Below the pieces are notes generated by a model that saw only the letters and a list, made by a program, of their open reading frames with translations, was not told where the DNA came from and made no database searches. From Betaproteobacteria bacterium Ga0077532 (GTDB lineage Bacteria; Pseudomonadota; Gammaproteobacteria; Burkholderiales; Ga0077523): a stretch of DNA of 64,000 nt. Shown here piece after piece: positions 27,603-51,945 of this stretch (its first letter is position 1; every line of letters starts with the position of its first letter). The stretch is taken from positions 59,653 to 123,652 of the forward strand of contig LNEE01000037.1 of assembly GCA_001464895.1 (NCBI GenBank), in the 5' to 3' direction. The position numbers and the translations under genes were made by a program.

Positions 27603-30600
27603 TCAGCGCTTCTGGGTGGCCGGCAGCGTCCGCAGCAGATTCTGCGATGCCGGAATCTGCGACAGTCTCTGCTTGAGATCCTTCGCCCAGTTGTCGGCCT
27701 GCCAGGACGACGCCTTGGTCTCCGATACCAGCGCGGAGGTGGTGGCCGACGTCACGATCGGCGCATCCCAGTTAACGCGCGTGATGGACGATGGCGCCGG
27801 CGCAGGCGGTGGGACCGCAACCGGCGCCATCCGCGCTGCGGGCGCGGGCGGTGCGGCTTCCACCACCGGCTCCGCCGCCATGGTCATGGAGACCTCGGAC
27901 ATCGAGACTGCGGGCGCTGGCGGCACTGGCGGTGTCGGCAGCGCAGGGATCTCCGGACGCGGCGCGCCGGCGAGGAACGCCGCAAACCGTGCGGCATCCA
28001 GGCTGGTGAGCGAGCCGTTGCCGTCGAGGTCCCCGATGATGACCGGGTCCAGGTTCCGCCAGGCGCTGAAGCCGGAGTCCAGCCTCGCGATCACCCGCTG
28101 GAGGCGGGTCAGGTCGGCAGAGGTATAGGCGCCGTCACCGTCGACATCCATGAAGTAGCCGACCGCATGGACGGTTTCATCGCCGAGCACTGCCTCGGAC
28201 GGGGCCGCCACGCCCCGCTTCAGCACGACGTCACCCCACTTCAGGCGACCCGGAATCCGAGTGCTGACCGCATCGGTCGGGACGGATCCCGTCAGCGTGA
28301 GCGGCGCCACGGTGCCCGCCGGCAGCGGTGCATCGAAGGTCACATCCACACGCAGTCCACCGGCGATCGCGGTGGTCACGATCGTCCCGGTGCGCCCGCC
28401 AGCGAACTGGAAGCCGGAGACAGCAAGCGAGTCGGCATCGAACAACAGGTCGAAGCTCAAGCTTGTGACGCCACCAGCCGCCGTGAGCCTCAGCGGCAGG
28501 TTCACCGCCTGGCCCGGACCGCGCGCGAAGTCACCCATCAACAACGCACTGGCGGGCAGCGTGCCCACGGTGAAACCGCCGGTGTAGTCGTCGCCAGCGG
28601 TCCCGTCGCCATTGCCGTCCAGCGACTCGCCTCCCAGGCTTGCAAGACCACCGATACCGGCGCGCAACCGGAGCCCGTAGGCCCCGGCCACGAGCGGGGT
28701 GCCGGTCTTCACGAAGGTGAAGCCGCGACCATCGTCGTCCATCACGACCGAGCCGCGCACCGCCGCCCCCGTGGGCCCCGTGAACGAAAGGTCCGCCGGG
28801 CCGTGACCGGCATCCGCCGCGTCGAACAGGTTGAGGCGGTTCGCGTCGATCACCCGATCGAAGCGCACGTGGAAGCCGCTGGTCGTGGATTCGAGCGACG
28901 TCACCTTCAGCGTGCCCGGCTGGACGTCCACGTTCACCGTGCCGACGTCCGTGAGGTCGCCATCCGAGACCGTGTACGTGAACGTGTCGGATCCGATGTA
29001 GCCCGCATTGGCGGTGTAGACGATCGAACCGTCGGCGGCGACGGAAACGGTGCCATGGGCAGCAGGACCGACATCGACGACCGACAGGGCATCGCCTTCG
29101 ATGTCCGAATCGTTGGCGAGCACATCGGAGGCCGGGATCACCAGCGCGACGCCATTCACCGCCGTCACCGAATCGTCCTCGGCCACCGGCGCGTCGTTCA
29201 CCGGCGTCACGTCGATGGTGACCGTGACGGGCGCGCTCGTCTTCGGACCGTCCGCCACGAAGCCGTTGGGCTCCAGCGGGCAGCCGCAATCGAGTTCGTC
29301 GTCGCCACCGTCGGTCACCGTGAAGACGAAGCTCACCGTGCCCGCGAAGTCCGCCGCGGGATCGTAGCGGAACGTGCCGTCCGGATTCAGTGTGAGCACG
29401 CCGCTCGCCGGGCCGCTCACGAGCGAGAACGTCAACTCGGCGGGCGTCTCGACGTCGGAGCCGGTCAACTGGCCGAGCAGCGGAGTGTCCTCGGCCACGG
29501 AAAGCATCGCCCCGTTCGCCACCGGTGCATCGTTGACCGGCCGCACCTTGAGGTTGACCGTGCCGACCGCCGACGCCAGGCCGTCGCTCACCCGGAACGT
29601 GAAGCTGTCGTTGCCGCGCACGTTCGCATCGGGCGTGAACGTCACCTGACGGGTGACCGGATCGATGGCGGAGAGCGCGCCCCGCTCCGGACCGGCTTCG
29701 ATGCTGAAGGTGAGCGCGTCACCGTTCGCATCGCTGGCGCCGAGGGTGATGACCAGGATGCCGTCCTCGTCGAGGAAGAGGGTCTGCGACTGCGGCACCG
29801 GCGGTGTGTTGGGCGCCGTGACGAAGACGCCGAGCGTGTTCGATGCGTAGGTGCCGTCCTCGTCGGTGGCGGTCGCCGTGATCGCGTAGTTGCTGCCGCC
29901 CGCGAAATACGTGTGATTTACGCTCGCGACATCGCCTGCGACCGTCTGGGTGAATCCGTCGCCCCAGTTGATCTCCCAGGAGACGATGGTGTCAGCCCCC
30001 GGATCGGTGGCGCCCAGGTTCAGCGTGAAGGGCGCGCCCTGATCCACCGCGGCCGCGCCGCTGATCGTGAGCGTCGGCGCGACGTTCTGGACGGTCACCT
30101 GGAAACCGACGGTGTCGAACGCCGCCGGCGAACCGACGTCGGTCGCGCGCACCGACACATCGACGATGGCGACGCCGTCTTCCGGCGTCCACGTGATGAG
30201 GCCGGTGGTTGCATCGATCGTCATGCCCGCCGGGGCAGCATCGAGCGACCAGACGAGCGCCTGGCCTTCGGGGTCGGTGGCCGACAGGTTAACCAGCAAC
30301 GTCGACCCTTCGAGCACCACCTGATCCTCGACAGGCGCGATCACCGGCGCATCGTTCACGGCGGTCACCGTGAGGCTCACCATCGCCACCGCGGACGTCA
30401 GCGCGTTGGCCGGCGTCCCGTCGGGGTCGCCGCGGTCGGTCACCGTGTACGTGAAGCTGTCGGTGCCGACGAAGTCCGCACCCGGGGTGTATGTCCAGCC
30501 CCCGGCCGGACCGAACGAGAGCGACCCGTTCACCGGCCCGGTGACCAGCGTGAAGACGAGGTCGGCGCGGCCGGTCTCGGTGTCGGAACCGCCGAGCACG

Positions 30601-33600
30601 ATGAGGCGCGGAGTATCCTCCTCCAGCGTGACCGCCTGGTCCGCGGCGATCGGGGCATCGTTCACCGGCAGGACGTTGAGCGTCACCGTGCCCGTATCGA
30701 TGCCGGCCTTGCCGTCGTCCACCTGGAACTGGAAGGCGTCCGGTCCGGTGTACCCCGGTGTCGGCGTGTACACCACCGTGCGCGCCACCGGATCGAAGTC
30801 GCTCAGCACGCCCTGGGCGGGCGCCGAGATCAGCGTGTAGGTGAGCGCGTCGCCGTTGCCGTCGGTGGCCGACAGCGTGATCGTCACGGCACCGTCCTCG
30901 TTCACCGTGCGGACCTGATCGTTCGCGACCGGCGCGGCATTGGTCGTGCGGTCGATCGTGAAGAACCGGATGTAATCGTCGCCGCCGGTGCCGTCCGAGT
31001 TGCCGTCGAGCGGGTTGCCCGAGAGGTCGTAGATGGCCTTCGTTCCGGACAGCGTCAGGCGGTAGGCCCCGTCCGACAGGATGCCGGGCGTCCCGCCGGG
31101 GCCCGTCAGGAAGTCGAGCGTGAGCGCCGTCTCGGGATACGAGTAGGCCGGCCGCAGCGCGATGATCACGTCGTCGACGGTGTCGAAGAGTCCGTCGACC
31201 CCGGCACGGCGGAGGTCGTAGTTGGCCGGGCTCTTCGCGCTGATGCTGTTCAGCGCTTCCGACATCGTGACCTGCAGACTGCTGAAAGCGAGCGCCGTGG
31301 TCCCGTTGTCCGGCGGCAGCGTGCTCACGGCCTCGACCGTGGGCGCCACCGCATCGCCCGAGTTGCCAAGGAACTCGTAGGCGCCGATATCGAAATAGGT
31401 GAGCCCCGGGGTTCGCGTGAACAGCACGCTGGGCGCGTTCTCGAGGCTGTCCGCCCCGTTGTACGCAGAGGTGACGAACGTGAACCCGTTGCCCGCCGAG
31501 AGACCGACTGTCGGCGTGAGCGACTTGTTGCCGTCACCGTAGTCGAACCGGATGTTGCCGTTGGCGAACAGCGTGACCGAGAAGTTGACGTCGCCTCCAC
31601 CGGTTTCCTGACGCGTCGCGGCCCAGCGGATGGTGACCTCACCGGCCACCGTGCTGTCGACGAAGATGTTGCCCACGGTGGAACCCGACGCGGCGGACTG
31701 CGTCGTGTCGGTCCGGAGGTTGTCCCACAGCGGCGCGATGCGGACGTTGCGGATCAGTTGATCGAGCGTGTTGGCATCGCCACCCGAGGCACTGTCGAGC
31801 CCGCCGAAATGCAGGAACCCGTTCACAGAGGCCTGCACCGAGGTGTAGGTCTTTCCGTAGAACTCGAACGCGAAGGGCAGCGTGATCGCAGCCGCGCTGC
31901 TGGTCGCGCGGAGCGGCAGCGCCGTGCCGGTCTCGACATAGCTGCTGCCACCAGACGTGGATTCCACGAAGAGATCCCAGCCGATGCCGGTGTTCACCGT
32001 CGACGGATCGTCATGGCGCTGGCGATCCTCGATGTCGCGCAGCGCGGCATCGTGGGGATAGTTGGGCACCGGCTTCGCCGCCTCGTAGGCATTGCCCGCA
32101 TCGATGGCGGCAGAGCCCGCATCGAGGCTGAAGTTGTCGTCGTAGCCGTTGCCGGTGGTGACATCCTGGTCACCCAGGACGTTGTCCGCACCGTCGATGT
32201 CGAGGAATTTCGGATCGCCGGTCTTCCCGGAGGCGTCGTGATTCACGGAGACCGACTGCCAGGCCGCCAGCGTCTCCCGCTGCGTGGCACCCCAGCGGCC
32301 CACGAGCGCGGCGGCAGTGCGCAGATCGAACAGGTTCCAGTCGGAACTGAAGCCTGGCTGACCGTCCGCCGTGACGTTGATGGCGTAGCCGTTGCCCACG
32401 GAAAGAATGTTGTTGCGGATGCGGACGTTGTTCGTCCCCGTCACGCGGATCGCGTCGCCCGTTCCCTGCCAGACCGTGTTGTTGTAGATCACACGATCAC
32501 CCGCCGAGTGGTTGTAGGTGGCGGTGATCCCGACGTTGGTGTTGGCGTAGACGAGGTTGCCGAAGATCTCGGAGGAGCCCGAATCGTAGATCCCGCTCGA
32601 ATTCGAATAGACGTAGTTGCGGGAGATGTTCGAAGAGGCGTAAGTGACGATGCCGGTCCCGTTGTCGAACGACCGGTTACCGACGATCTGCCCCTGATAG
32701 CCGGTCTGGATCCCGATCGTGTTGTCGTAGGCGTCGTTGTCGATGATGAGCGACGGGCTGTTGTAGCTGTAGATCCCGATGTCGCCCGGCCCGTTGTGGT
32801 TGTAGACGCGGTTGCCGCGAGCGGTGACGTAGCTGGAGATGTCGATGCCCACGCTGCCGTTGTCGTGGACGTCGTTGCCGATCACGAGCGAGCGGGTCGC
32901 CTCGGTTCCGTTGGAGACGCTGATGCCGCGATTGTTGTTCCCGTAGACCTCGTTGTTCTCGATCCGGAGCCTCTCGGCACTGCTGCTGGCGACACCGTTC
33001 TGCAGGTTGTTGTGGATCGTGCTGTCTCGGATGACCCAGTCCGAATGCCCGTTGCTGATCTGCACGCCGTGGCTGGCGTTGCTGTAGATGTCCATGAACC
33101 GCAGCAGCACGTTGTCGTTGCCGGCTGTGCCGACCGCCTCGATGCCATGCTGGCCACCGGTCACGTTCAGCCATTCGAGCGTGACGTTGGATGCGCCCTC
33201 GAACGAGAAGACCCTCTGGTCGGTGGTCGTGTTGCCACGATTGAGGACTGCATCGTGGGTCGGCAGGACCGGGCCGCGGATCGTGACGCCGGAATCCTGC
33301 GCCGTGAGGACGATGTTGGTGGCGAGGTTGTAGACGCCCGTGTCGACATGGATCACGTCGCCGGGGTCGAGATCGTAGGCCCGCAGCAGCGCGGCGAGGG
33401 AGGCCATCGGTGTCGCAGCGGTCTTGCCGTCGTTGGCATTGTTGCCGGCCGCCGTCGTGTACTCGTTGCCGACCAGGGATCCGTCGTTCACGTAGTAGGC
33501 CGTGCCGGCATTCGCGATCTGGAACGGAGCGTTGGAGACGTCCGTCACGGTGTTGGCGCCCGCGTGACCCGTGGCCCGGATCAGCGCATTCGTCGCGACC

Positions 33601-36600
33601 GGCCCGGCGTTCCACGCGAAGCTGCCGCGGCCGAAGCGATCGAGAGCGACCCCGCCCGCGATCGGGATCCAGCTCGATCCGCCGTCGGTGGACACTTCCA
33701 GGTCCACGGTCGGATTGGCGACACCCGCGGGATTGATTCGCTGCAGTTCGACCCCTGAAACGATGGCAGCTTCGTTGTTGGTGAGGTTGGTCAGTTCGAT
33801 CAGGAGACCGTCACCACCCGAGGCCGTCACGTCATAGCTGAGCACCACGGCCTTGTTCGTGGCACCGGCGATCGCGCGGCGGTCGACGGACGCAGCGACC
33901 GTGACGCCATCGACGGAGATGCCGAACCGCGAGGCGCCGATCGCTTCGGTCTGCGACAGGGTATGCAGCACCAGGCGGTAGTCACCGTCCGGCGCGGGAA
34001 GTCGGTACACGAGCTTGTTGCCCAGACCGAAGCTGGCATTGCTCCAGGTCTGGTAGATGGCCGGCGACGCTGCGCCGACCACACCGTCCGTCGAGATGGC
34101 CGTCGCGGTGCTCCTGGTGCTTCCGCCTTCCCGGTAACGATCGACGGACCAGCCATCGACCGGTGCAGTCGCACCGCCGTTGTTGAGTCGCAGCACGCTG
34201 TCGTACGACGTCAGGCCTGCGCTGCGCACCTCGACCTGCACCGTCTGGCCCGCCTCGAACTTCTCGAGCCCGTTCGGGTTGAGCACCTGCACCATCTGGG
34301 ACGCACTCTGCGTGGCCTTCGCCGTGTTGCCGTAGACGCCGAGATCCACGCGCCCACCATTCGATTCCGGCTCCGCGACGAAGATGGAAGTCGGATCGCC
34401 GGCATCGACGCCAGGACTCCCGACGGAGAGACGGAAATCGTCGTCCAGCCCGCCGTCGACGCCCCCAACGAAGCCGAGCATGCCGTCGGCACCATCGATG
34501 TCGACGAATGCCGGGTTGGCGATCGCGCTCTCGAAGTCGTTGGCGGTCTCGTAGGACCAGTCGGCCAGCGTCAGGAAGTCGCGGCCTTCCCAGAAGGCCA
34601 GCTTGCCGGTACCGAAGGTGTGGAACAGGTTGTAGTCGGACGCGAAGCCGATCTGGTTGTTGTTGCCCACGCGCAGCGCGTAGCCCGCGCCGACCACGAT
34701 GATGTTGTTCCGGATCGACGTGTTGCTTCCGCCGCCCGTCGCCAGAACACCATCACCCGCCGACTGGTAGATCGTGTTGCCGAAGAGGCCGTCACCCGCC
34801 GAGTTGAAGCCGTTCATCAGGACGCCGCGGACCCGGTTCTCGTAGATGAGGTTGCCGGTCACCGTGCTGTTGCTGCCGTTCTCCATCCCCGTGGCGTTCG
34901 CGTACACGACGTTGCCGGCGGCGAGACCCGAGCGCACGTAGATGCCGGTGCCCGAGTTGTCGAACACCCGGTTGTCGATCGCCGACGCATTGTTCGTCAC
35001 CGAGATGCCGCCACCGCTGTTCGAATAGACCGTGTTGCCTCGAACGATCGGGCTCTGGTCGGCAATGATGCCGTTGGCCGTGTTGTGATGGACGATGTTG
35101 GCTTCGACGGTCACCCGGTTGCTGGCGCTGATGCCGGTGCTGTTGTTGCGAACCTCGTTCCCCACGACGAACACGCCCTGGGTGTATTCACTTCCAGGCG
35201 CCGAAACGGAAATCCCGGTGGAGTTGTTGCGGACGAGGTTGTTCTCCACGCGCCCACGAGCCGTGGTCACCGAGATGCCGGAACTGCTGTTGCCGTAGAC
35301 CTCGCTGTTGCGGATCGTGAAGCTCTCGTTGTTCGATCCGACAATGACGCCGAGCGCGTTACCGTGGACGATCACGCCATCGAGGGTGATGCGATCCGAG
35401 TCGACGCCTTCGTTGCCGCGCACCCCGTACAGCCCGCCCGTGAGCACCACGCGCTCGATGGTGACGTCGTCCGCACCTGCGAACTGGATCACCGACTCGC
35501 CGGTGTTGCCACGGTTCAGCACTGCCAGATTGCCAGCCAGCTGCGGGCCGCGGATGGTGACGCCGGAGTCCTGGGACTCCAGAAGGATATTGGTCGCCAG
35601 GGAGTACACGCCGGTGTCGACGTGGATCACGTCGCCGGGGTCCAGGTCGTAGGCCCGCAGCAGCGCGGCGAGCGACGCCATCGGCGTGGCCGCCGTCTTG
35701 CCGTCGTTCGCGTTGTCGCCGACGGCCGTGGTGAATTCGTCGCCCGCCGTCGAACCGTCGTTCACGTAGTAGGCCGTCCCGGCGTTCGCGATCTGGAACG
35801 GCTGATCGGAGACGTCGGTGACTGTCACGGCGCCGGCATGAGCCGTTGCGCGGATCAGCGCATTGCCCACCTGCGGGCCGGCGGCCCAGGTGTAGCTGCC
35901 GCGGCCGAAGCGGTCGACGGCGAGATCTTCCGCGATGGCGAACCAGCTGCTGCCGCCATCGACGGACACCTCGAGGTCCACCGTGGGGTTCGCGACGCCC
36001 GACGGATTCAGCCTCAGGATCTCGATCCCGGAAATCATGGCAGCACCGGACGCGCCGTTCAGCAGATCGAGTCGAAGCCCCTGCCCCCCGGCGATGGTCG
36101 CGTCGAAACTCAGCGCGAGCGCCCGGTTGATCCCGCCGGTGAGCGCGCGAACATCCACAGCCGCCTGCACCACTTCACCATTCAGTGCGATGTCGAAGAC
36201 CCGCTGACCGACGATGCTCAGACTGGGCTCCACGAAGTGCAGCACCACCTGATAGTCGCCATCGTCCAGTTGCCATTGATAGCGCAACCCCTTGCCGGCA
36301 CCGCTGTCGGCATGGGCCATGGTCCGGTAGACGGCATCAGGGGCAGGGTCAGTGACACCTGCGGTAGTGATCACCGTGCTCGCGACAATGCTGTGGCTGC
36401 GCACCAGCGTCCCCAGACCGATCACATCGCCTTCCGGCGCCCAGTAGCCGACGTTCGCCGACCCGCCAGCATTCATCAGCAGCACCGTGTCGGTCGGCGT
36501 GAGACCCGCCGTACGGTAGTCGATCACCACGGACTGCCCGAGCTCCATCTTCTCGAGGCCGTTCGGGTTCACCACCTGCACCATCTGCGCTGGGCTCTGC

Positions 36601-39600
36601 GTGGCACCGGCCGTGTTGCCGTAGGCCCCCAGGTCAACGCGTCCGCCGTTGCTGTTCGGCTCGCGATCGAAGCGCGATGTCGGATCCCCGCGGTCCACCG
36701 CCGGGCTGGCCGTGGCCAGCCGGAAGTTGTCGTCCGCCCCCCGGTCACCGAGGACCCGCTGGATGCGGACCGCATCGGCCATGATCCGGCTGCTCGTGTT
36801 GCCGCCGAAATTCGACAGCTCGACGATCAGGCGGCCGTTGCGGATCTCGACCGTCTCCAGGCGCTCCCAGGCGAGACCGTCCGCATCGGTGAAATCGTTG
36901 GGAATGCCCTGGGACAACGACGCGACGGCGACCACGTCGGCGACCGTCGTGCCGCCGTCGTACACCCGGTAGCTGCCCGTGGTCGGACTGAGCCCCGAAC
37001 CGTTCGGCCAACGTGCGGCGATCTGATAAGTGCCGTCCTCCAGGCCGTCGAAGCTCCAGCGGGCCACGCTGCTGCCGTCACCGCCTCCGGGAATCCAGTG
37101 GATGTCGTTGTCGGTGGCCGTGGTGAAGATCGTGCGCTCGAGCGCCGTCGCCGTGTACGCGGGCGGACCGACCTCATTGTTTCGCCCGATGCGCTGCTCC
37201 CACGGCCCGACGATGGTGAAGCCTGCGTCGCCGTCGTCGACGAGTCGTGGCACGCCGACGAGCGCGAGGCTGTACCCGCGGGTGCCGTCAGCGCCGGCGG
37301 GGTCGATGAAGAGCGGATCCGCCACGAGGCTCTCGCCGTCGCGCCCCGTCTCGAAGAACCAGTCGGCGAGCGTGAAGAAGGGGCGATCCTCCCAGTAGGA
37401 AATGCGCGCGCCTTCACCGAGCCGGAACAGGTTGTAGTCGCTGTCGAAGCGGTCCTGCGCATTCGACGGCACGTTGATGGCGATGCCGCTTCCGGCCTCG
37501 ATGATGTTGTCGCGGATCAGCACGTTCTGGGCGCCACCCGCCGCACGGATCGCATCGCCGGTCGGCTGCACCACCGTGTTGCCGATGATGCCGTCACCGG
37601 CACCGCGATAGCCGCTGGTGACGATGCCGGCCACCGTGTTGTCGTAGACGAGGTTGCCCGCCACGCGGGACGCGCCCTCGGTGATGCCGATGCTGTTGCC
37701 GAAGACGACATTGCCTTCGGCAATGCCACCGCCGCTGCCGCCCAGCTCGATGCCGGTACCGCTGTTGGCATAGACACGATTGTCGCGCCCGACACCACCG
37801 ACGCTGAGGATGAGACCCGTGGCGTTGCGATAGATCTCGTTGTTCGACGCAAGAGCGCGATCGTCGTAGAGACTCACCCCCGTACCGCTGTTGCCGTAGA
37901 CCCGGTTGCCCTCCACCAGCACCCAGTAGCTCACGGCGATGCCGATGCCGTTGTCGTGCACCGTGTTGCCGATGATGTCGATGCGCCCCGCGGCGCCGTT
38001 GTACGAGGCCGTGATGCCGCCGCCGTTGCTCCAGACGTGGTTGCCGACGGCGCGCGTGCCGGCGCCGTTCAGATTGAGACCCCACGATCCGTTGCTGTAG
38101 ATCTCGTTGTCCGAGATCAGCGCATTCGTGTTGCCGTCGCCGATGAAGATGCCGTGCTGGCTGTTGAAGATCAGTTCGCTGCGCTCGACCGTGAGACGGT
38201 CGCTGCCGGCGTTGGTACCGGCGACGATCCCGTGGTAGCCGCCGCGGATGACGAGGTTGCGCAGCGTGACGTCGTCGGCGCCCAGCAGATTGAAGACGAA
38301 GCTCGTCGAGGACGTGTTGCCGCGGTCGAGCACCGCCGCCAGGCCGTCGAGGGTCGGCCCCTCGATCGTGACCCCGGAATCCTGTGTCACCAGTTCGATG
38401 TTCGCGGTGAGCAGGTAGTAGCCGGTGTCGACACGGATGACATCGCCGGCATCGAGGTCGTAGGCCTCGAGCACGCCGCGGATCGTGGCCTTGGGGGTTG
38501 CAGGGGTGAGGCCGTCGTTGGCGTCGTTGCCGATGGCGGTGGTGTACTGGTCTCCGGCGGTCGAGCCGTCGTTGACATAGAAGAGGCTGATCGGCGGCGT
38601 GATGCTGAACGCTGCGTTCGACACGTCGAGGATCGAAGGCGTGTCGATCGACCGCACCCGGATCCGGTAGGCGTCGCCCACGGCGAACAGGGCCGGATCC
38701 ACGCTCCACAGATGACTGCCGTCGTTCACTTCGTTGTCGGCCAGCAACTGCCAGACCGGCGCGCCGGCGACGGCGGAGATCTCGATGGCGACATTGCCGC
38801 CGAAGCCGTTGGAGCGCCAGCGGATCTCGTATGTGGATTCCTGCGGGATGGCCTCGCCGCCGTTCGGATTGGTCACGAGCATGTACTGGGCGGGGCTGCG
38901 CGAGGCCTGGGCGGTGTTGCCGTAGGCGCCGATATTCACGTAGCCACCATTGTTCGCGGGCTCGTTCGCGAACGGATCGGTGGCGGCGCCGCGGTCAATG
39001 CCGGGGCTGGTGACCGCGTCGAGCGAAAGAACGGCTGTCAGGAATACCGGGAGGCCCGTCTCGGCATCGCGCACCGGTGCGAGCGCGCCACCCTTGAAGC
39101 TGCCGAACTGGCTGCGCTCGTGGAAGTCGTCGTCGCGCCCGTCGTTGCCGACACCGCCAAAGCCCAGTACGCCGTCGGCGCCATCGATGTCGACGAAGAG
39201 CGGATCGCCGAAGAGGCTGTTGCGATCGCCGAAGGTGGCGTTCTGCCACGACAGAAGGGAGCTGCGTTCGACGCCCTGCCAGAGACCCACCGCGCCGGTG
39301 CCCGTGGCATGGAACAGATTGAAGTCGGAGGCGAAGCCCGACTGGGAGTCCGCCGCCACCGACAGGGCGTCACCCTGGGTCGCCCACAGGATGTTGTTGC
39401 GCACCCGGACGTTGCTGGAACCGCCCTGGATGCGGATCGCATCGCCGCTCGTTGCGTACACCGTGTTGCCCAGGATCTGCGCGCTTCCGCCCGACAGGAA
39501 GACGCCGTAGTCGACGGCTGCGTACAGGAGGTTGTTCCGGATGACCGAGCCGCTGCTTGTGTTGATGTTGGTCGCGTTCGAGTAGACGACGTTGCGATCG

Positions 39601-42600
39601 ATCGTGCCGGCGCCGGTGATGCCATGGCGTCGGTTGTCGTAGACGCGGTTCTCGGTCACGTCTCCGCCGGAGAACGAGATGCCGTCGTAGTTTCCCGAGA
39701 CGACGTTGCGGCTGGCCGAGCCGCCGCCGAAGAGGTTGAGGCCTGTCGCAAACGAATTGGTCTGGTTCTGGATGGTGTTGCCGGCGACGCGCGTGTTGTA
39801 GGCGGCCTGGATGCCGATCTGGCGGTTCTCGTAGGCGAGGTTCCCGCGCCCGAGCGAGAGGTCCATGTGACCGACGATGGCATCCGCACCGCCGGCGCTG
39901 TTGAAGACCTGGATGCCGACATTGTTGCGGTACGCGACGTTCGCCTCGATTCGCGATCCGGCACCGGGACCCGACACGATCAGGCCGACACCGCCGTTGT
40001 CGCGCACCACGGAATCGCTCACCACGCCGACGACACCGTCGATCACGATTCCGTCGGTCGTGTTGCTGTATGCGAGGCCGTGCGTGAAGCCCGCGATGGG
40101 CCCATCGATCCAGATGCCCCGCCCGGTGTTGTTGTGGGCGGTGAGATTGCGGAACGTCGAGAACGGGGCATTCGTGTCGACCCGCATGCCGTCCTGCGCG
40201 TGCCCGGTGACCGTGATGTACGACAGAGCAAGGCCATCGCTGCCGTTGCGCACCTCGAGGCCCCGCAGCGCATTGCGCAGCGTGAGGCCGCTGATCGTCA
40301 TGTTGTCGGCGTCGTCCAGCAGGATCACCGGCTGGGTACGATCCCCGGGGATCGCCGGGAAGAGGCCGGCAATCTTCGAGACATCGGCGGGGCCGCGGAT
40401 CGTGAAGCCCTCGTCGAGCCCGAGTCCGAGATCGGTGGTGCCGGAGAGATTCACCGGGTCGATCATCGAGTACTCGCCGGTGTCGATGTTCAGGACCGAC
40501 GCGGCATTGAGCTCGTACACGCGCAGCAGGTTCGTCGCGTAAGGCTTCGGCGCCGTCGCCAGCTTGCCGGTGTGGCGGTTGTCGCCGATGGCGCCGGGCG
40601 TGTACTCGTCATCGATGTTCGATGCGTCGTCGACCCAGTACGTCGTGCCGGCCTCCGGCACCGTGAAGGTCTCCTGCGAGCGGTCGATCGCGATCGGCAC
40701 ATTCACGAGCGAGACCTGGATGCGCAGGCCGTACGTGCCGAAGTCGAGGCCGCTCGAAGACGGGATCCAGATGTGCTCGCCGTCATCGGCCGTGGCCGCC
40801 GCGATCGTCTGACGCAGCGCCGGGCCGTGCAGGCCGTCCTGCCACAGTTCGATGCGGACCGGCGATTCCGTGCTGTTGCCGAAGGTCTCCCAGCGGATGG
40901 TGAGCGGCTTCTCCTTCTCGAGGTCCGCATAAAGATCGGGATAGCGCAGCGAGATGCGCGGTGCGCCGGTGCGCGCGACGTCGGCGGTGGTGTGGCCGTA
41001 CGCGCCCAGATCGGTGCCCTGGGCCTCGGTGCGCACGTATACGAAGGCGCCATCGAGATAGGCGTCGGCAGTGCCGGAAGCCTGCTCGCGATCGGCGATG
41101 AACCGGTACACGGCCTTGCGGGCGCCGGTGGGGATGTCGATGCGCCCACCCACGAGTTCCCAGCGGTCGGTCGTGCTCGTGGCGTCCACACGCACGGGCG
41201 TGCCCATCACGGCGTTGGTCGCGTCGAGGAACCGGATCTCGATCGCACCGCGATCGCGCGGCGTCTCCACGGCGGCGCGGATGCGACCACCGAAGACGAG
41301 TTCGAGGTCCTGGCCGTCGATCTGCGCGGCCGACACTTCCGGGCCGACGAGGTCGACCACCTGCTCGATGTAGCCCTCCTCGATCGTGCCGGGGCGGAAG
41401 AACTTCGTGCCGGAATGTGCGCCGGGCGCCGTCGTCACGACGGTGCCGTTGATGTTGAACTGGTCCCAGCCCGCGAGATCGCTCTCGAAGCCGGGGTTCG
41501 ACAGCAGATTGGTGTAGCCGGGCGGCACACCGAGGTCCGCGCGGGCGTCGCCGTCGTCGATGCCGGGGCTCGTGAACCGCAGGCCCGCCGTCACGGGCAT
41601 CAGGCGGTAGTCGTCCTGCCCGCGGTTCATGAAGCGCGGCTCGGCCCACTGCGGGTTCACGTCCGTGCGGCCGATCGAATGCAGATCGAAGCGCGCGATG
41701 TCCGCCTGCCAGTCGAGGATGTCGTCGAAGTCGCGGGTCCAGTAACCGATGCGCCCGGTGCCGGACGAATACAGGTTGTTGTAGTCGCTGAAGAAGCCGC
41801 GCTGCGAATCGTTGGCAACGTAGATGCCGTACCCGGATTCGTTCCAGAGCACGTTGTTCCGCACGTCCACGTTCGAGCTGCCACCCACGATCCGGATGAG
41901 ATCTCCGACCGGGGAATAGAGCGTGTTGTTGCCGATGCGCACATCGGTGTTCCCCGACGCCGTGATGCCCGAGACGGTGTTGCGGTAGATGAGGTTGTGG
42001 ACGATCCGCAGGCCGTTGCTCGCCACCACGCCCGTCGCGTTGCCGAAGATGCGGTTGAACTGCACGGTGCCGCTGAAGCTGCCGACACCGACGGTGTTGT
42101 CCTCGATGAGGTTCGCGGTATCGAACTCCGCGCCGCCGACCACGCCGCTGCCGCTCACGCCGACCTGGTTGCCGGTGATGTGCTGGCCGCGGACCTGCGC
42201 GTTCACCAGCGAGACGCCCGTCGTGTTGCCGGTGATCTCGTTGGCACCCGACCCGACCCAGCCCAGGGCAGCGTTGCCGGAGACCGTCGAGACGATACCG
42301 GTGCTGTTGCCGCGGATGCGGTTGCCGACCAGCGCGGCACCCGCGTTGTAGCGTACGCCCACGTTGGCGCCGAAGACGTCGTTGTCGCGGATCTCGCCGG
42401 TGAACGCGGCGTCGATGACGAGACCGCTGCCCGAGATCTCGTTGTGGGCGATGACCCCGGCCGCCGCCGCGCCGATACGCACGCCGCTGCCCGCGCCGAA
42501 TCGGTTGTGCACGATCTGCAGATCGCTGCCGCCATTCACGACGAGGCTCTGATCGGTGAACGCACTGTCGTGCACCGTGAGCCCCACCGCGTCGTCGAGC

Positions 42601-45600
42601 ACGAGCCCACCGGTCAGGGTGAGCCGCTGCAGGACACCGCCGGCGCCACCGGTCACGACGACATTCCCGACGACCACGCTGTCCATCTGCGGCGAGCCGA
42701 TGATGAGCACGCCGCTGTCGTTCGCGCCGAGCGTGAATCCGGCATGGTTGCCGGCGGCGAGGTAGATGACGTCCCCGGCACCGAGGTCGTTGTTGTCGAG
42801 GATGTTCTGGACGGTGATCGCGCCGTTCGCGACGTACACGTTGTTCGCGGCCTGCAGATTCCCGCGCAGGTAGACCTGCGGCGCGCCGGTGCTCGCGTCG
42901 GTCCAGGCGATGTAGGGTCGACCGGCGCTGTCGACGGCCGTCGCCAGTGCCTGGACATTGCCGCTGGTGGGGCTCACGCCGCGGCTGGAGGCATCGCCCG
43001 CGATGCGCTCGCCGAAGCCGAGCGGCGTCCACTGCTTCACGTAGAACGAGACCGTGTTGTCCGGGCGCTGTTGCACGCTGTCGTCGGCCCACGTGAGCCA
43101 GAGTTCCCCACCGCCCGAAGCGAGCTTGGGCGAGAACGCCCGGCCCGTGGTGGCCGAGACGCCGGTGCCCGCGGCCGAGAGCACGCCAGCGTCGACCCAG
43201 CTGCCACCGACCCGCTGGCGCGCGTAGATCTCTTCGCGCCCGGAGGACTGGTCCTGCCACGCGGCGAAGAGGACATCGCCGAGGTACGCGACGGTGGGCG
43301 TGCGGCTCGGTCCGATGTTGGCGCTGGCATTCGTCGCGGCAGTCCAGCTGCCTCCGACGAACTCGCGGGCGAACACCTCCGCGGCGTCGCCGGTACCCTG
43401 GGACCACGCGATGCCGATACGGGCGCCGTTGGTCGTGGCCGCCACTTCGCGCACACCGCCAGCCACGGCGGTGACCGCGACGCCACCGCCGAGCGTCACC
43501 CAGTTCGCGCCGTCGAAGCGCCTGGCGTGCACCTGCGGCGTGCCGCTGCTGCGGTCTGTCCAGACGGCCACGAGGCCGCTGTCGGTGACGAGCAGTTGCA
43601 CGTTGTCGGCGGCGTTCGAATTGCTGATCCCGTCGCCATCGAGGGACTCGCCGAGGGCGACCCACGCGGCACCGTTCCACTGGGCGACGCGGATGTTCGA
43701 AGCACCGCTCGCAGCGATCTCCGTCCAGGCCACCACCGGCGCCCCGCCGGAGAGGACGACGCTCGGCCGCCGGGACTGCGAGAGCGTGCTGCTCACACCA
43801 CCGCCGGAGGCACTGGACCCGAGTTCGCTCCACTCGCCGCCGGCGTTCCGCGCCACGTAGATCTCGAAGCTGCCGTTGCGCGTGTCCGCCCAGGCCATGA
43901 TCCGCGACGTCGTGGTGACCGCCACCGACGATTCGACAGCGATCCCACCACCGCCGCTCACGCCGTTGCCGCTGGCGGAGCCGGAGAACTCGCCCCACCA
44001 GCCACGATAGTCGGGTCCGGTCGGGAGGGTCGGCGTGGCGCCGGGGTCGACCACACTCACGACGGCCAGCGGTGCGGCGGTCGCGATGGGTGCTGCGAAC
44101 CCTGCGGGGTCGCCGACACCGAGGTTCACGATGTTGGACGTGCCCGCGCCGGCGTCGATGCTGTCGTCCTCACCCTCACCGAAGAGGATGTCGTTCCCGC
44201 CCTGGCCGAAGAGCTGATCCCGACCGGATCCCGCCTCGCCGAGGTCGGTGCCGAAATCGCCGTAGAGCCAGTCGACGGCATTGTCGTCGCCCGCGCCGGA
44301 AACGCTGTGGCCGTACAGGCGGTCGTGCTGTGCGCCGCCGAGCAACACGTCGACGCCCGCGTTGCCTTCGATGAGGTCGTCCCCTGCGCCGCCATCGATG
44401 ATGTCGTCGCCGTCGCCGCCGCGGAGAACGTCGTTGCCGCCGTTGCCGAAGAGCAGGTCGCGCCCGGCGTCCCCCGACATGACGTCCGCCCCATTGTCGG
44501 AGCCGCGGAGGATGTCATCGCCGTCCCCGCCGCCGAGGTCGTCGCCGACGCCTCCACCACCGATCAGCTCGTCGTTGCCGTCCTCGCCGCGGATGAAGTC
44601 GGTGCCGAACCCGCCATCGATGGTGTCGTCGTCGGCGCCACCGAACAGGCGGTCGTTGCCGAAGCTGCCGGCGATGCGATCGCGCCCCGCGCCACCGAGG
44701 ATGAGGTCGCCATGCACGCCGCCGTCGATGTCGTCGTCGCCCGCACCGCCGTCGATGATGTCCGCGCCGCCGAGGCCCCGGATCCAGTCGTTGCCGTCGC
44801 CGCCGAAGATGCGGTCGCCGAAGAAGACGTCATCGAGGAGATCGGGATCCTCGCCGCCATCGTCGGACCCGAGAATGCGGTCGTCGCCCTGGTCACCGTA
44901 GAGACGCTTGCCGACGCCGATGCCCGCGATCAGGAGATCGTTGCCGAATCCGCCACGCAGCACGTCGAGGCCGCTGCCTCCGTCGAGCAGGTCGTCGCCC
45001 GCATTGCCCCACAGCAGGTCGTCACCGCTCTCGCCGTAGATCGCGTCTTCGCCGGTGCCACCGAACAACTCGTCGTTGCCCTCGGATCCGTAGAGCCGGT
45101 CGTTGCCGGCGCCGCCCCACGCGAGGTCGTCGTCGAGGCCACCGACGATGACATCGTCGCCGAGGTCGCCCGAGAGCTGGTCGTTGCCCGCTTCGCCGAA
45201 GATCTGGTCGTTGCCCTCCTGGCCGCGAACCACGTCGTGACCGGAGCCGCCCAGGATGGTGTCGTCCCCCGCACCACCGAGGATGAGATCGTCGCCGGCA
45301 TCACCGTAGATGAGGTCGTTCTGCTGGTTGCCGTGGATCTCGTCGTTGCCTTCGCCGCCGTAGATGATGTCCTCGCCAGCGCCGCCGGACATGAAGTCCG
45401 CGCCCGTGTCGCCGTACATCGTGTCCCGGCCGTCGCCGCCGAACATGCGGTCGTTGCCGCTGCCGCCGTGCATACGATCGTCCCCGGCCTCGCCGTAGAT
45501 CTCGTCGTCGCCGCCCTGACCGTGGAGCACATCGTTGCCGGACGCGCCGGACTCACCGCCGCGCTCGTAGTCCGTCCCGGTGGCGAAATCGCCCCACAGC

Positions 45601-51530: not shown

Positions 51531-51945
51531 GCCAGTCTCCGGCGCCGGCAGCCGGGGATGTCGGCAACGGGCGCATCGCGCGATCGACCTGCCCGGCGAC
51601 GAAGGGGAGCATGCACGACGCGTCACCGCGAAGGCAGCCATCCTGGTCTGGGTGGCACGACCTATTTTTTGTGTGTTCGAACACGTCGCGAAGACCGGTT
51701 TCCGGTTCGACGCGCGTGCGCCCCATTTTTTCTCAGTGGTCTGCGGGGGGCCCGGATGGTCCGGGCGGGAAGGAATCGGTCTCCCCCTCAGTCTTGTGGT
51801 TGGAAAATACTCCTGAAAGAGAAGAATTGTCCATTCCGGATCGTGTCGATTCTCGCGGCCCGCCCCCCGGGGAGCGCCGCATCGTTCAGAATCGGGGCTG
51901 GCAGATTTTTCGACACGGCGTCCCAACGCCGCCCACGCGATCTAC

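What the first reader, a model, noticed from the sequence alone, without database searches (positions are those of the whole stretch)
32004..42857. Five parallel beta-helix modules, most paired with a different lectin-like domain
Modules A-E each have 12 or more PbH1-type coils, and modules A-D each precede a putative glycan-binding unit. A is followed by a CBM4/9-like domain. B is followed by a small Ig-like domain. C contains a golvesin-C-like sandwich and is followed by malectin-like domain 1. D is followed by malectin-like domain 2, and E by a NIDO-like domain. Modules B, C and D end with the same cap, SP(G/A)(I/V)D.G....EP..NGG(R/Y)V(D/N)(L/I)G.YGNTA. Beta-helix folds are typical of polysaccharide lyases, hydrolases, epimerases and NosD-like proteins. 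Five in series with distinct lectins suggests a multivalent glycan-processing or glycan-crosslinking array. I cannot identify catalytic residues by eye.
Basis: partly seen in the sequence, partly recalled or inferred. Interest (0 to 1): 0.7.

Follow-up and report, generated by a model that had tools for sequence, protein, structure and literature searches.

The report
Lectin-studded beta-helix core of giant protein
The flagged stretch is the middle third of one 7,975-residue secreted "LEPR-XLL" giant protein of a Burkholderiales bacterium, made of five related beta-helix rods with sugar-binding-type domains nested in their loops; it most likely acts as a sugar-binding surface fibre, and nothing found shows that it is an enzyme array.

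Summary
Window 32004-42857 is minus-strand residues 3024-6641 of a single uninterrupted ORF (gene 27603-51530, 7,975 aa). It holds five paralogous PbH1 beta-helix modules, each above the Pfam Beta_helix threshold, with about 15 coils in the one that was modelled.

The accessory domains hold up unevenly:
- Malectin 1 and Golvesin_C pass Pfam.
- Malectin 2 is confirmed by fold and by profile.
- The CBM-like domain is a CBM4_9/FBA-type sandwich, seen at profile level only.
- The NIDO-like assignment is weak and has no structural match.

Three refinements apply. All five modules carry the cap. The CBM-like and NIDO-like domains split the caps of A and E. An Ig-like domain follows A-D, and the malectins are nested inside it in C and D.

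The protein matches NCBIfam "LEPR-8K". It belongs to a cross-phylum family of collinear 5-8 kaa giants with the order RTX, propeller, helix, CBM, Ig, helix and so on.

I found no catalytic signature. No enzyme-specific family matches. The AlgG/AlgE DPHD motif is absent. Only ladder and cap residues are conserved across 257 family modules.

Best reading: a non-catalytic, multivalent glycan-binding fibre. This is a new member of a named but uncharacterised family, of moderate interest.

The parts
27603..51530 (-). Whole gene: 7,975-aa giant protein. Start is ATG at 51530 (= residue 133 of the 8,107-codon ORF that opens at TTG 51926); stop codon at 27603-27605.
   Evidence: The ORF is uninterrupted. 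GGAG lies 8 nt upstream of ATG 51530. Orthologue P0118 aligns from its residue 6 to our residue 136.
51360..51419 (-). N-terminal LEPR-XLL motif (ALFEALESRLLLSADL), ORF aa 170-189.
   Evidence: NCBIfam NF012209 'LEPR-8K' scores 24.7 bits against cutoff 17. There is a faint Pfam Planc_extracel hit.
44127..46133 (-). RTX calcium-binding nonapeptide block (aa ~1932-2600).
   Evidence: Pfam HemolysinCabind scores 318 bits with 20 stretches, plus 81 bits with 6 stretches. NCBIfam RTX models also match.
42858..44009 (-). Beta-propeller-like repeat region (aa 2640-3023), immediately upstream of module A.
   Evidence: Repeats of the type AW.D...Y are visible in the sequence. Only a faint TIGR04275 hit was found. 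The region recurs in the same position in many family giants.
41541..42857 (-). Module A: beta-helix plus the N-half of its cap (SPGIDDGD at aa 3453).
   Evidence: Beta_helix 41.9 bits and NosD 36.2 bits. Alignment with the other modules is, motifs.
41028..41519 (-). CBM4_9/FBA-like beta-sandwich (aa 3470-3633), nested in the cap of module A.
   Evidence: It has 451 relatives at E<=1e-3. The profile hits the FBXO2 sugar-binding domain (E 2.6e-5) and the CBM of Xyn10C (E 0.019). Of 21 orthologous domains, 15 hit CBM_4_9 and 5 hit FBA. Its own sequence has no Pfam hit.
40983..41021 (-). C-half of the module A cap (GTDLGAYGHTT).
   Evidence: The family consensus of the CBM-like domain ends in D.GAYGNT.
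40617..40964 (-). Ig-like domain 1 (Kre9_KNH-like), the most conserved domain of the region.
   Evidence: Kre9_KNH scores 23.2 bits, below GA 24.6. Identity to orthologue P0118 is 89%. Many polar residues are invariant across 62 orthologues.
38892..40616 (-). Module B: N-cap, beta-helix (the longest, ~17 coils inferred) and an intact cap (aa 4307-4339).
   Evidence: Beta_helix 65.5 bits.
38592..38891 (-). Ig-like domain 2 (uninterrupted).
   Evidence: Kre9_KNH scores 17.9 bits, below GA. It aligns with the other Ig-like domains.
37257..38591 (-). Module C beta-helix.
   Evidence: Beta_helix 93 bits and NosD 54 bits.
36756..37121 (-). Golvesin_C (CBM6/35/36-like) sandwich, inserted between the GADG loop and the DDxF/SPxxD cap of module C.
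   Evidence: Pfam PF25275 scores 36.1 bits against GA 31.6 when scanned alone, and 30.8 bits inside a larger piece. The insertion point is visible in the five-module alignment. The CBM6/35/36-like nature is taken from PMC9166713.
36597..36746 (-). Module C cap (aa 5074-5106 motif).
   Evidence: There is a weak NCBIfam choice_anch_Q match, 18.4 bits against cutoff 25.
35772..36596 (-). Ig-like domain 3, split (aa 5111-5150 and 5306-5385), with malectin 1 (aa 5151-5305, nt 36012-36476) nested in a loop.
   Evidence: Malectin scores 46.5 bits against GA 23. With the malectin excised, the domain aligns collinearly with Ig2 at 30% identity. Self-BLAST agrees.
34302..35771 (-). Module D: N-cap, ~15-coil beta-helix and cap (aa 5837-5869).
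   Evidence: Beta_helix 82 bits. The model has pLDDT 88 and 46 strands. Foldseek matches are AlgE4 (TM 0.56), AlgE6, 8ja4 and phage tailspikes.
33492..34301 (-). Ig-like domain 4, split (aa 5876-5915 and 6066-6145), with malectin 2 (aa 5916-6065, nt 33732-34181) nested in it.
   Evidence: No Pfam hit. The wider cap-to-malectin region is 49% identical to that of module C. In the model it matches human malectin 9ikp (TM 0.63, rmsd 3.8) and the ANX/FERONIA ectodomains. The profile hits malectin at 2e-8 and FERONIA at 2e-11.
32082..33491 (-). Module E: beta-helix plus the N-half of its cap (SAAIDAGN at aa 6605).
   Evidence: Beta_helix 82.5 bits and NosD 59 bits.
31398..31982 (-). NIDO-like domain (aa 6649-6843), nested in the cap of module E; it lies just outside the finding's interval.
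   Evidence: NIDO scores 15.8 bits, below GA 25. Seven of 19 homologues hit NIDO, best E 3.5e-5. The same nesting is seen in homologues. The model core has pLDDT 75-94, but no PDB match is better than E 0.23.
31359..31397 (-). C-half of the module E cap (YFDIGAYEFLG).
28857..30959 (-). Downstream tandem-95 / bacterial cadherin-like / He_PIG / PKD repeat region (context).
   Evidence: Big_9, Cadherin_4, Cadherin_5, He_PIG and PKD_4 match. NCBIfam tand_rpt_95 also matches.
27957..28148 (-). Dockerin type I near the C-terminus (context).
   Evidence: Dockerin_1 scores 27.2 bits against GA 22.9.

Best explanation
IDENTITY (shown). The region is the central ~3,600 residues of one intact, chromosomally encoded 7,975-aa extracellular protein of the LEPR-XLL ('LEPR-8K') giant family. 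The host is a Burkholderiales bacterium.

ANATOMY (shown). The region is built from five paralogous chassis units. Each unit has an N-cap (YYVNDGS...GDVI.VD.G.Y), a PbH1 beta-helix of about 15 coils, a conserved C-terminal region (SDYN...W...W...D..S..DP.F...DDxF...SPxxDxG...DxGAYG) and, after modules A-D, an Ig-like domain. Beta-sandwich domains of carbohydrate-binding type are nested into loops of this chassis rather than strung between units:
- a CBM4_9/FBA-like domain inside the cap of A;
- Golvesin_C (CBM6/35/36-like) before the cap of C;
- malectins inside the Ig-like domains of C and D;
- a NIDO-like domain inside the cap of E.

MECHANISM (inferred). The beta-helices act as rigid, non-catalytic rods. 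They hold several different glycan-binding domains at fixed positions along a long fibre. The fibre is stiffened by calcium through the upstream RTX block and the downstream cadherin-like repeats. It is exported by means of the N-terminal LEPR-XLL motif and ends in a dockerin. The fibre would bind or crosslink polysaccharides of the cell's own matrix or of surfaces and particles, that is, act as a multivalent adhesin or matrix organiser.
For: - Single ORF and gene start.
- LEPR-8K HMM above its cutoff.
- Five modules above the Pfam Beta_helix GA, and mutually homologous.
- D-unit model with pLDDT 88 and about 15 coils.
- Lectin-type domains: malectin 1 and Golvesin_C above GA; malectin 2 by fold and profile; CBM-like profile hitting FBXO2-SBD, CBM_4_9 and FBA; golvesin carrying a CBM6/35/36-like domain (PMC9166713).
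- Nesting: exactly five cap N-halves, five cap C-halves and five SDYN motifs; the halves are 24 aa apart in B-D, 186 aa apart in A and 241 aa apart in E; the same nesting is seen in homologues; malectin-excised Ig domains align collinearly with Ig2.
- No catalytic signature: only generic Beta_helix/NosD models match at E<=10; AlgG GIDPHD aligns to family 'GIS' and no DPH occurs in aa 3024-6641; 257 non-redundant family modules conserve only the Asn/Gly ladder and the caps; 64 orthologues of A and 62 of Ig1+B show the same, with Ig1 and the N-cap of B more conserved than the helix body.
- Family context: at least 31 other proteins of 5-8 kaa show RTX, (propeller), helix, CBM, Ig, helix in the same order, with variable malectin and NIDO content. 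They occur in Burkholderiales, Planctomycetota, Verrucomicrobiales, Phycisphaerae and Rhodobacterales.
- Adhesin-type context in the same protein: RTX, tandem-95/cadherin-like repeats, He_PIG, PKD, dockerin. Huge proteins with this domain set are described as extracellular in PMC11573180.
Against: - No binding or localisation data exist for any family member.
- The nearest solved beta-helix folds are all enzymes: AlgE4/AlgE6 epimerases, an alginate epimerase/lyase, phage depolymerase tailspikes, GH136 and GH91. CBMs appended to a beta-helix are the classic carbohydrate-active-enzyme layout.
- Module A orthologues do conserve a few mid-helix polar residues (Y3193, Q3248, R3292, H3310). I read these as ladder-adjacent, but I could not place them in three dimensions.
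- The strongly conserved acidic C-terminal region (SDYN...D...D) could be a functional site rather than a cap.
- dbCAN/CAZy HMMs were not available.
- The NIDO-like domain has no demonstrated glycan-binding function.
- No classical signal peptide is evident, and export through LEPR-XLL is itself only an inference.
Confidence: 0.55

Rival explanations
1. Enzyme array. Each beta-helix is an active polysaccharide lyase, hydrolase or epimerase of an undescribed family, targeted to its substrate by its nested CBM. The giant protein would then remodel EPS or degrade environmental glycans in cis, as an AlgE-like system of A-modules plus RTX scaled up.
For: - The best structural neighbours are enzymes: AlgE4 (TM 0.56), AlgE6, alginate epimerase/lyase 8ja4, tailspike depolymerases, GH136.
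- Profile hits reach GH91 inulin fructotransferase (5.9e-11) and AlgG (2.7e-9).
- RTX repeats co-occur in the same protein, as in AlgE.
- A CBM attached to a beta-helix is a typical carbohydrate-active-enzyme layout.
- Each module is kept as a distinct orthologue across phyla.
Against: - No enzyme-specific Pfam or NCBIfam family matches, even at E<=10.
- The AlgG/AlgE DPHD motif is replaced, and no DPH occurs in the region.
- No conserved acid/base cluster is found in the mid-helix coils of 257 family modules or of 62-64 orthologues at ~44% identity, a level at which catalytic residues should be invariant.
- Sequence identity to the enzyme structures is only 9-18%.
Confidence: 0.25
2. Protein-protein assembly scaffold. 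The beta-helices and Ig-like domains mainly mediate self-assembly or anchoring of a surface layer or 'planctosome'-like complex through the C-terminal dockerin. The lectin-type folds would be co-opted for protein ligands.
For: - A dockerin lies at the C-terminus.
- Non-cellulosomal cohesin-dockerin complexes have been proposed for Planctomycetes (PMC6461901).
- Ig1 and the N-cap of B are the most conserved parts.
- Plant malectin-like domains (FERONIA, ANX) bind peptides and proteins, and they are the top fold hits.
Against: - No cohesin was detected in this protein.
- No partner genes lie nearby; the neighbours are hrcA, hemH, nadK and recN.
- Malectin, CBM4_9/FBA and CBM6/35/36-type folds are predominantly glycan binders.
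Confidence: 0.12
3. Annotation artefact. The real genes would be the long plus-strand ORFs (28167-33758, 33963-45650, 45933-53114), or the minus-strand ORF would be a decayed pseudogene.
For: Plus-strand ORFs of 1,863, 3,895 and 2,393 aa overlap the region.
Against: - All domain hits, internal repeats and 451+ homologues lie in the minus-strand frame.
- The minus ORF is uninterrupted for 8,107 codons.
- It is collinear at 64% identity with a 7,706-aa orthologue.
- At ~67% GC, open antisense frames are expected.
Confidence: 0.01

Closest known systems
NCBIfam NF012209 'LEPR-8K' / LEPR-XLL domain-containing giant proteins (and the Pfam PF07595 Planc_extracel motif)
   Same: The N-terminal LEPRxLL-type motif scores above the model cutoff. 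The protein is about 8,000 aa. At least 31 giants of 5-8 kaa from several phyla share the same collinear domain order.
   Different: The family is only a name. The held literature contains two incidental mentions and no functional work. The host here is a Burkholderiales bacterium, whereas most relatives are Planctomycetota.
AlgE1-7 / AlgG mannuronan C5-epimerases (beta-helix A-modules, with RTX R-modules in AlgE)
   Same: They are the best structural matches for the beta-helix (2pyg TM 0.56, 5lw3). AlgG is hit at profile level (2.7e-9). RTX repeats occur in the same polypeptide.
   Different: The catalytic YG(F/I)DPH(D/E)/DPHD motif is absent. Identity is 13-17%. The RTX block lies upstream of all the helices as one unit and does not alternate with them.
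Phage tailspike / capsule depolymerases (CBA120 TSP2, Depo32, K2 TSPs)
   Same: They share the long right-handed beta-helix rod that engages polysaccharide (Foldseek E ~1e-6).
   Different: The tailspikes are trimeric, with active sites in or between helices. Here identity is only 9-11% and TM scores are low (0.13-0.2). The modules are tandem and monomeric, with nested lectin domains.
Giant RTX adhesins secreted by type I systems (LapA, SiiE, MpIBP type) - comparison from general knowledge
   Same: A huge, repeat-rich, Ca2+-binding extracellular fibre with terminal ligand-binding domains; RTX and Ig/cadherin-like repeats are present.
   Different: The RTX block is internal (aa ~1932-2600 of 8,107) rather than C-terminal. 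The C-terminus is a dockerin followed by a Pro-rich tail. No T1SS genes lie nearby. The N-terminus carries LEPR-XLL instead of a retention module.
Malectin / CBM57 and plant malectin-like receptor ectodomains (FERONIA, ANX1/2)
   Same: Malectin 1 is above the Pfam GA. Malectin 2 matches human malectin (TM 0.63) and the ANX/FER ectodomains by fold and profile.
   Different: Here the malectin is nested inside a Kre9_KNH-like Ig domain. The two copies are the fastest-diverging parts, at 38-46% identity to the orthologue.
FBXO2/Fbs1 sugar-binding (FBA) domain and CBM4_9/CBM22 modules
   Same: The profile of the nested domain of module A hits FBXO2-SBD (E 2.6e-5) and the Xyn10C CBM (E 0.019). Fifteen of 21 orthologous domains hit CBM_4_9 and five hit FBA.
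   Different: The window's own sequence does not reach any Pfam model. The domain is inserted in a beta-helix cap and forms its own family of at least 451 members.

Membership tests
NCBIfam NF012209 LEPR-8K (LEPR-XLL domain-containing protein) | N-terminal LEPRxLL motif scoring above the model cutoff | tested here: met
   24.7 bits against cutoff 17 at ORF aa 170-189.
NCBIfam NF012209 LEPR-8K (LEPR-XLL domain-containing protein) | Very long (~8,000 aa) repetitive extracellular protein (the meaning of '8K' is recalled from memory) | tested here: met
   7,975 aa. Collinear relatives of 5-8 kaa exist.
Pfam PF13229 Beta_helix (PbH1 right-handed parallel beta-helix) | HMM score above the gathering threshold in each of the five modules | tested here: met
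   41.9, 65.5, 93, 82 and 82.5 bits against GA 25.9. The model of D shows a three-stranded coil repeat about 15 times.
NosD (N2O-reductase maturation protein) | Pfam NosD HMM above the gathering threshold | tested here: met
   Modules A, C, D and E score 36-59 bits against GA 23.6; B has no hit. The model detects generic PbH1 coils.
NosD (N2O-reductase maturation protein) | Stand-alone periplasmic protein encoded with nosZ/nosFY | tested here: not met
   The modules lie inside a 7,975-aa protein. The neighbours are hrcA, hemH, nadK and recN.
AlgE/AlgG mannuronan C5-epimerases | Beta-helix fold similar to the A-module | tested here: met
   2pyg_B TMt 0.56; 5lw3 E 6e-7. AlgG profile E 2.7e-9.
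AlgE/AlgG mannuronan C5-epimerases | Catalytic DPHD / YG(F/I)DPH(D/E) motif | tested here: not met
   AlgG 'GIDPHD' aligns to family 'GISae'. No DPH tripeptide occurs in aa 3024-6641.
Beta-helix CAZyme families (PL1/3/6/9, GH28, GH49, GH55, GH91, GH110, GH136, CE8) | Match to a family-specific model with the catalytic residues present | tested here: inconclusive
   No family-specific Pfam or NCBIfam model matches at E<=10. There is only repeat-level profile similarity to GH91 and a marginal PL6 or GH110 hit. dbCAN was not available.
Pfam PF11721 Malectin (CAZy CBM57) | HMM above the gathering threshold / malectin fold | tested here: met
   Malectin 1 scores 46.5 bits against GA 23. Malectin 2 has no Pfam hit but matches 9ikp (TM 0.63), and the profile hits malectin at E 2e-8.
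Pfam PF02018 CBM_4_9 | HMM above the gathering threshold | tested here: inconclusive
   The window sequence has no hit. Fifteen of 21 orthologous domains hit, best E 2.8e-4. The profile hits FBXO2-SBD at 2.6e-5 and the Xyn10C CBM at 0.019.
Pfam PF25275 Golvesin_C | HMM above the gathering threshold | tested here: met
   36.1 bits against GA 31.6 when the domain is scanned alone, and 30.8 bits in a 900-aa piece.
Pfam PF06119 NIDO | HMM above the gathering threshold | tested here: not met
   15.8 bits against GA 25. Seven of 19 homologues hit weakly, best E 3.5e-5. No PDB fold match is better than E 0.23. At best a remote relative.
Pfam PF10342 Kre9_KNH Ig-like domain | HMM above the gathering threshold | tested here: inconclusive
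   Ig1 scores 23.2 and Ig2 17.9 bits against GA 24.6. Several family homologues carry a precomputed PF10342 hit.
NCBIfam NF041518 choice-of-anchor Q domain (the cap) | HMM above the cutoff | tested here: not met
   18.4 bits (C cap) and 15.2 bits (E) against cutoff 25. This is resemblance only.
T1SS-secreted RTX adhesins | C-terminal RTX block with secretion signal, and an adjacent ABC/MFP/TolC system | tested here: not met
   The RTX block is internal. The C-terminus is a dockerin and a Pro-rich tail. No transporter genes lie next to the gene.

The most novel reading that the evidence does not exclude
The five beta-helices could be founding members of undescribed carbohydrate-active enzyme families. 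Their active sites would lie in the strongly conserved acidic C-terminal region (SDYN...W...D..S..DP.F) rather than in the mid-helix groove. LEPR-8K giants would then be cross-phylum, single-polypeptide 'assembly lines' that bind and remodel exopolysaccharide, each station addressed by a lectin nested in its own cap.
Probability: 0.15. Interest if true: 0.7.

Novelty: new member of a known kind. Interest (0 to 1): 0.4.

Why it matters
Giant extracellular proteins with RTX, beta-helix, cadherin-like and dockerin domains are common in Planctomycetota and related bacteria, but none has a known function. This window adds three things:
- an intact Burkholderiales member of the family;
- a clear parts list;
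- a design rule: lectin-type domains are nested into loops of a constant beta-helix, cap and Ig chassis, and the domain order is conserved across phyla.

That gives experimenters defined, expressible units for glycan arrays and enzyme assays. It also points to culturable hosts for genetics: Rubripirellula obstinata, Stieleria mannarensis and Roseisalinus antarcticus. If the helices turned out to be catalytic, several new carbohydrate-active enzyme families would follow. If they are not, the family is a model for how bacteria build multivalent glycan-binding fibres.

Tried and rejected
- Plus-strand ORFs as genes: rejected, because all homology lies in the minus frame.
- Single-sequence PDB searches with module D, the CBM-like domain and the NIDO-like domain gave nothing significant.
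- The first homologue search with the CBM-like domain found only 2 hits. The exhaustive representative search was needed and found 451.
- Exact look-up of the window's DapB to identify the source organism found nothing on record.
The single-protein query worked.
- The idea that [beta-helix + malectin + dockerin] units exist as stand-alone proteins was rejected. The ~1,100-aa hit P0011 is a fragment of a frameshift-broken giant gene, and the word-index database returned only proteins of at most ~1,400 aa.
- Foldseek of the NIDO-like model against the PDB gave no match better than E 0.23, so neither a 'lectin' nor any other fold label is supported structurally.
- A cohesin partner for the C-terminal dockerin: no Pfam hit.
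- Secretion or glycan-metabolism genes next to the giant gene: none. The neighbours are housekeeping genes.
- Cluster names added nothing beyond 'right-handed parallel beta-helix repeat-containing protein' and an automatic 'probable pectate lyase C'.
- I could not map conserved residues onto the 3D model, because model coordinates are not exposed to scripts.

Full report
WHAT IS AT THE COORDINATES

The finding gives no strand. The interval 32004-42857 lies entirely inside one open reading frame on the minus strand, 27603-51926, of 8,107 codons. Residue i of that frame corresponds to nt 51926-3(i-1), so the finding covers residues 3024-6641.

Three long plus-strand ORFs of 1,863, 3,895 and 2,393 aa overlap it. 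They are antisense shadows of a ~67% GC gene. Every domain hit, internal repeat and database homologue is in the minus frame.

The real start is almost certainly ATG 51530, which is ORF residue 133. GGAG lies 8 nt upstream, and a 7,706-aa orthologue aligns from its residue 6 to our residue 136. That gives a 7,975-aa protein.

CHECKING THE OBSERVATION: THE BETA-HELICES

Self-comparison defines five homologous modules:
- A, aa 3024-3462
- B, aa 3771-4345
- C, aa 4446-5110
- D, aa 5386-5875
- E, aa 6146-6615

They share 27-61% identity, with E-values down to 4e-104. Each exceeds the Pfam Beta_helix gathering score (41.9-93 bits against 25.9). Four of the five also exceed the NosD threshold.

An AlphaFold2 model of the D unit (aa 5385-6179, alignment A3) has mean pLDDT 88. 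It shows 46 short strands between local residues 49 and 400, which is about 15 three-stranded coils. The other modules are of equal or greater length in the five-way alignment. '12 or more coils' is therefore shown for D and inferred for A, B, C and E.

CHECKING THE OBSERVATION: THE CAP

The full motif S[PA][GA][IV]DxG-x8-EPxxNGG[RY]V[DN][LI]GxYGNTA occurs exactly three times, in B, C and D. The spacing is eight residues, not four.

The N-half (SPxxDxG) and the C-half (DxGAYG/E) each occur exactly five times, as does a further motif, SD[YFW]N. In B, C and D the two halves are 24 residues apart. In A they are 186 apart, with the CBM-like domain between them. In E they are 241 apart, with the NIDO-like domain between them.

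The same split caps are seen in homologues from other organisms (alignment A1). The consensus of the CBM-like family ends in 'D.GAYGNT'.

The cap resembles NCBIfam choice-of-anchor Q, but only below its cutoff (18.4 bits against 25).

CHECKING THE OBSERVATION: THE ACCESSORY DOMAINS

- Malectin 1 (aa 5151-5305) scores 46.5 bits against GA 23.
- Golvesin_C (aa 4936-5057) scores 36.1 bits against GA 31.6 when scanned alone. Golvesin is reported to carry a CBM6/35/36-like domain (PMC9166713). Here the domain sits between the GADG loop and the DDxF/SPxxD cap of module C.
- Malectin 2 (aa 5916-6065) has no Pfam hit. The surrounding region is 49% identical to that of malectin 1. In the model it matches human malectin (9ikp, TM 0.63, rmsd 3.8) and the ANX/FERONIA ectodomains. 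The A3 profile hits malectin (2e-8) and FERONIA (2e-11) in the PDB.
- The CBM-like domain (aa 3470-3633) has no Pfam hit itself. An exhaustive HMMER search found 451 relatives. A profile of 21 of them hits the FBXO2 sugar-binding domain (E 2.6e-5) and a xylanase CBM (E 0.019). Fifteen of the 21 members hit CBM_4_9 and five hit FBA. 'CBM4/9-like' is acceptable at superfamily level.
- The NIDO-like domain (aa 6649-6843) lies just outside the stated interval and is the weakest assignment. It scores 15.8 bits against GA 25. Seven of 19 homologues hit NIDO weakly. A model with a confident core (pLDDT 75-94) has no PDB neighbour better than E 0.23.
- The 'small Ig-like domain' is Kre9_KNH-like, at 23.2 and 17.9 bits, just below GA. 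It follows A, B, C and D, not only B.
- In C and D the malectin is inserted into a loop of the Ig-like domain. With the malectin excised, Ig3 and Ig4 align collinearly with the uninterrupted Ig2 at 29-30% identity.

The repeating unit is therefore a constant chassis of N-cap, beta-helix, C-cap and Ig-like domain. Variable sandwich domains are nested in its loops.

THE WHOLE PROTEIN AND ITS FAMILY

Upstream of the region lie:
- an N-terminal LEPR-XLL motif (NCBIfam NF012209 'LEPR-8K', 24.7 bits against 17);
- about 1,750 residues with no family match;
- a ~670-aa RTX block;
- a propeller-like repeat region.

Downstream lie a Big_5-like domain, tandem-95/cadherin-like repeats, He_PIG, PKD and a type I dockerin.

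Among the 150 best relatives of the CBM-like domain, 34 are longer than 5,000 aa. One of them, P0118, is 64% identical and collinear over residues 136-7676, with the same five caps and the same nested domains.

In all but two or three of the other 33, the order RTX, (propeller), helix, CBM, Ig, helix recurs. It is followed by variable numbers of helix, Ig, malectin and NIDO units.

A scan of species-representative genomes found the A+CBM+Ig1 block at these identities:
- 93% in a Burkholderiales MAG (JALHMS010000009);
- 68-74% in other Burkholderiales and Betaproteobacteria MAGs;
- 37-49% in Planctomycetota (including Rubripirellula obstinata and Stieleria mannarensis), Phycisphaerae, Verrucomicrobiales, a Spirochaetaceae MAG and Rhodobacterales (Roseisalinus antarcticus).

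The held literature has only incidental mentions of 'LEPR-XLL'. A survey of huge proteins notes that Big_9, Cadherin, HemolysinCabind and Dockerin giants are extracellular and mostly planctomycetal (PMC11573180).

GENOMIC CONTEXT

The gene sits between hrcA (26535-27557, +) and hemH (51946-53046, +). Also nearby are nadK, recN, dapB, carAB, ftsH, a phosphoglucomutase/phosphomannomutase-family gene, phosphate-transport genes and a CoA-transferase. No secretion-system or polysaccharide-metabolism genes are adjacent.

ARE THE HELICES CATALYTIC?

The nearest solved folds are enzymes: AlgE4 (TM 0.56), AlgE6, the alginate epimerase/lyase 8ja4, phage depolymerase tailspikes, GH136 and inulin fructotransferase. 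Identity to them is only 9-18%.

Profile searches reach GH91 (5.9e-11) and AlgG (2.7e-9) through the generic PbH1 repeat. In the AlgG alignment the catalytic 'GIDPHD' is opposite a family consensus 'GIS..'. No DPH tripeptide occurs anywhere in aa 3024-6641.

No enzyme-specific Pfam or NCBIfam model matches, even at E<=10.

I collected 257 non-redundant modules of this family. Positions conserved at 60% or more in the helix body are Asn, Gly, Ile and Tyr ladder residues only. The conserved polar residues lie in the N-cap and in the C-terminal SDYN...W...W...D..S..DP.F...SPxxDxG region.

Orthologue-only sets give the same picture: 64 sequences for A and 62 for Ig1+B, at a mean identity of ~44%. 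In A, four polar residues in the helix body are conserved (Y3193, Q3248, R3292, H3310). When aligned to the modelled D unit, they fall on or next to ladder positions. In B, only R4094 and a tyrosine stack are conserved.

Ig1 and the N-cap of B, by contrast, are densely conserved. Ig1 is 89% identical to P0118, against 58-73% for the helices and 38-46% for the malectins.

This is the pattern expected of structural rods carrying binding domains. It is not proof: I could not run dbCAN, and I could not map conservation onto coordinates.

MOST LIKELY MECHANISM

Shown:
- one intact giant gene;
- five beta-helix chassis units;
- nested carbohydrate-binding-type folds;
- RTX, cadherin-like and dockerin context;
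- an order conserved across phyla.

Inferred:
- The protein is exported (LEPR-XLL motif).
- It forms a long Ca2+-stiffened fibre.
- The helices act as rigid spacers that display different glycan-binding domains. This gives multivalent binding or crosslinking of polysaccharide, either the cell's own matrix or foreign surfaces and particles.
- The fast-diverging malectins would tune specificity.
- The invariant Ig1/B-N-cap junction may be a structural or partner-binding hinge.

I put this reading at about 0.55, the enzyme-array rival at about 0.25, a protein-assembly scaffold at about 0.12 and an annotation artefact at about 0.01.

NOVELTY AND VERDICT

Its 'glycan-processing' reading is unsupported.

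The object is a new member of a family that already has a name in NCBIfam and is widely auto-annotated as 'right-handed parallel beta-helix repeat-containing protein'. No member has been characterised.

The nesting rule and the conserved domain order are useful descriptive additions rather than a new kind of system. Interest: 0.4.

Noticed in passing
window 28167-33758, 33963-45650, 45933-53114 (+): Three very long antisense ORFs (1,863, 3,895 and 2,393 aa) shadow the giant minus-strand gene. They have no homology support and are best explained by ~67% GC and codon bias, but gene callers could mis-annotate them.
   Followed up: partly
window 46134-51530 (-), aa 133-1931: About 1,800 N-terminal residues after the LEPR-XLL motif match no Pfam or NCBIfam family, yet are 63-72% identical to orthologue P0118. 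In the phmmer scan with aa 200-900 only a few of the other giants (P0136, P0145, P0188, P0227) matched. The region appears to be an undescribed conserved module.
   Followed up: partly
window 42858-44009 (-), aa 2640-3023: A propeller-like region with about seven repeats of the type '...AW.D......Y..R' lies between the RTX block and module A. Only a faint TIGR04275 hit was found. It recurs at the same position in many family giants.
   Followed up: partly
window 40617-40964 (-), Ig-like domain 1: This is the most conserved domain of the whole protein: 89% identical to P0118, against ~64% overall. Many charged and aromatic residues are invariant across 62 orthologues (D3664, Y3666, D3668, W3679, D3714, W3720, R3735, E3752 and others). 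It may be a binding site or hinge rather than a spacer.
   Followed up: partly
window 26535-27557 (+) and 51946-53046 (+): The 24-kb giant gene lies on the opposite strand between the housekeeping genes hrcA and hemH, in a core-gene neighbourhood (recN, nadK, carAB, dapB, ftsH). No secretion or glycan genes are adjacent. This suggests insertion into a conserved gene pair; synteny in relatives was not checked.
   Followed up: no
window 27606-28859 (-), aa 7690-8107: The C-terminus has a type I dockerin (27.2 bits), followed by a Pro/Ala-rich linker and a ~70-aa tail. The segment before the dockerin looks cohesin-like by eye but has no Pfam hit.
   Followed up: partly
L018 1-11950: In an ENA metagenome contig, a homologous giant gene is split into at least five consecutive same-strand ORFs (3,154+, 236, 158, 1,113 and 210 aa), presumably by assembly frameshifts. 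Many '~1,000-aa beta-helix proteins' in the databases may be fragments of such giants.
   Followed up: partly
window 39027-39134 (-), aa 4265-4300 in module B: Module B has a private ~30-residue insertion (RSQFGSFKGGALAPVRDAETGLPVFLTAVLSLDAVT) between DDDFHE and its SPGID cap. This lies in the same cap-region stretch (GADG loop to SPxxD motif) where Golvesin_C is inserted in module C, just downstream of the DDxF motif rather than upstream of it. It may be a remnant or a seed of a nested domain.
   Followed up: no
window 56797-57978 (-), 63048-63989 (-), 5137-5221 (-): Other features of the window: a DUF5666-domain protein, a protein with a TfoX C-terminal domain, and a tRNA-Leu(GAG).
   Followed up: no
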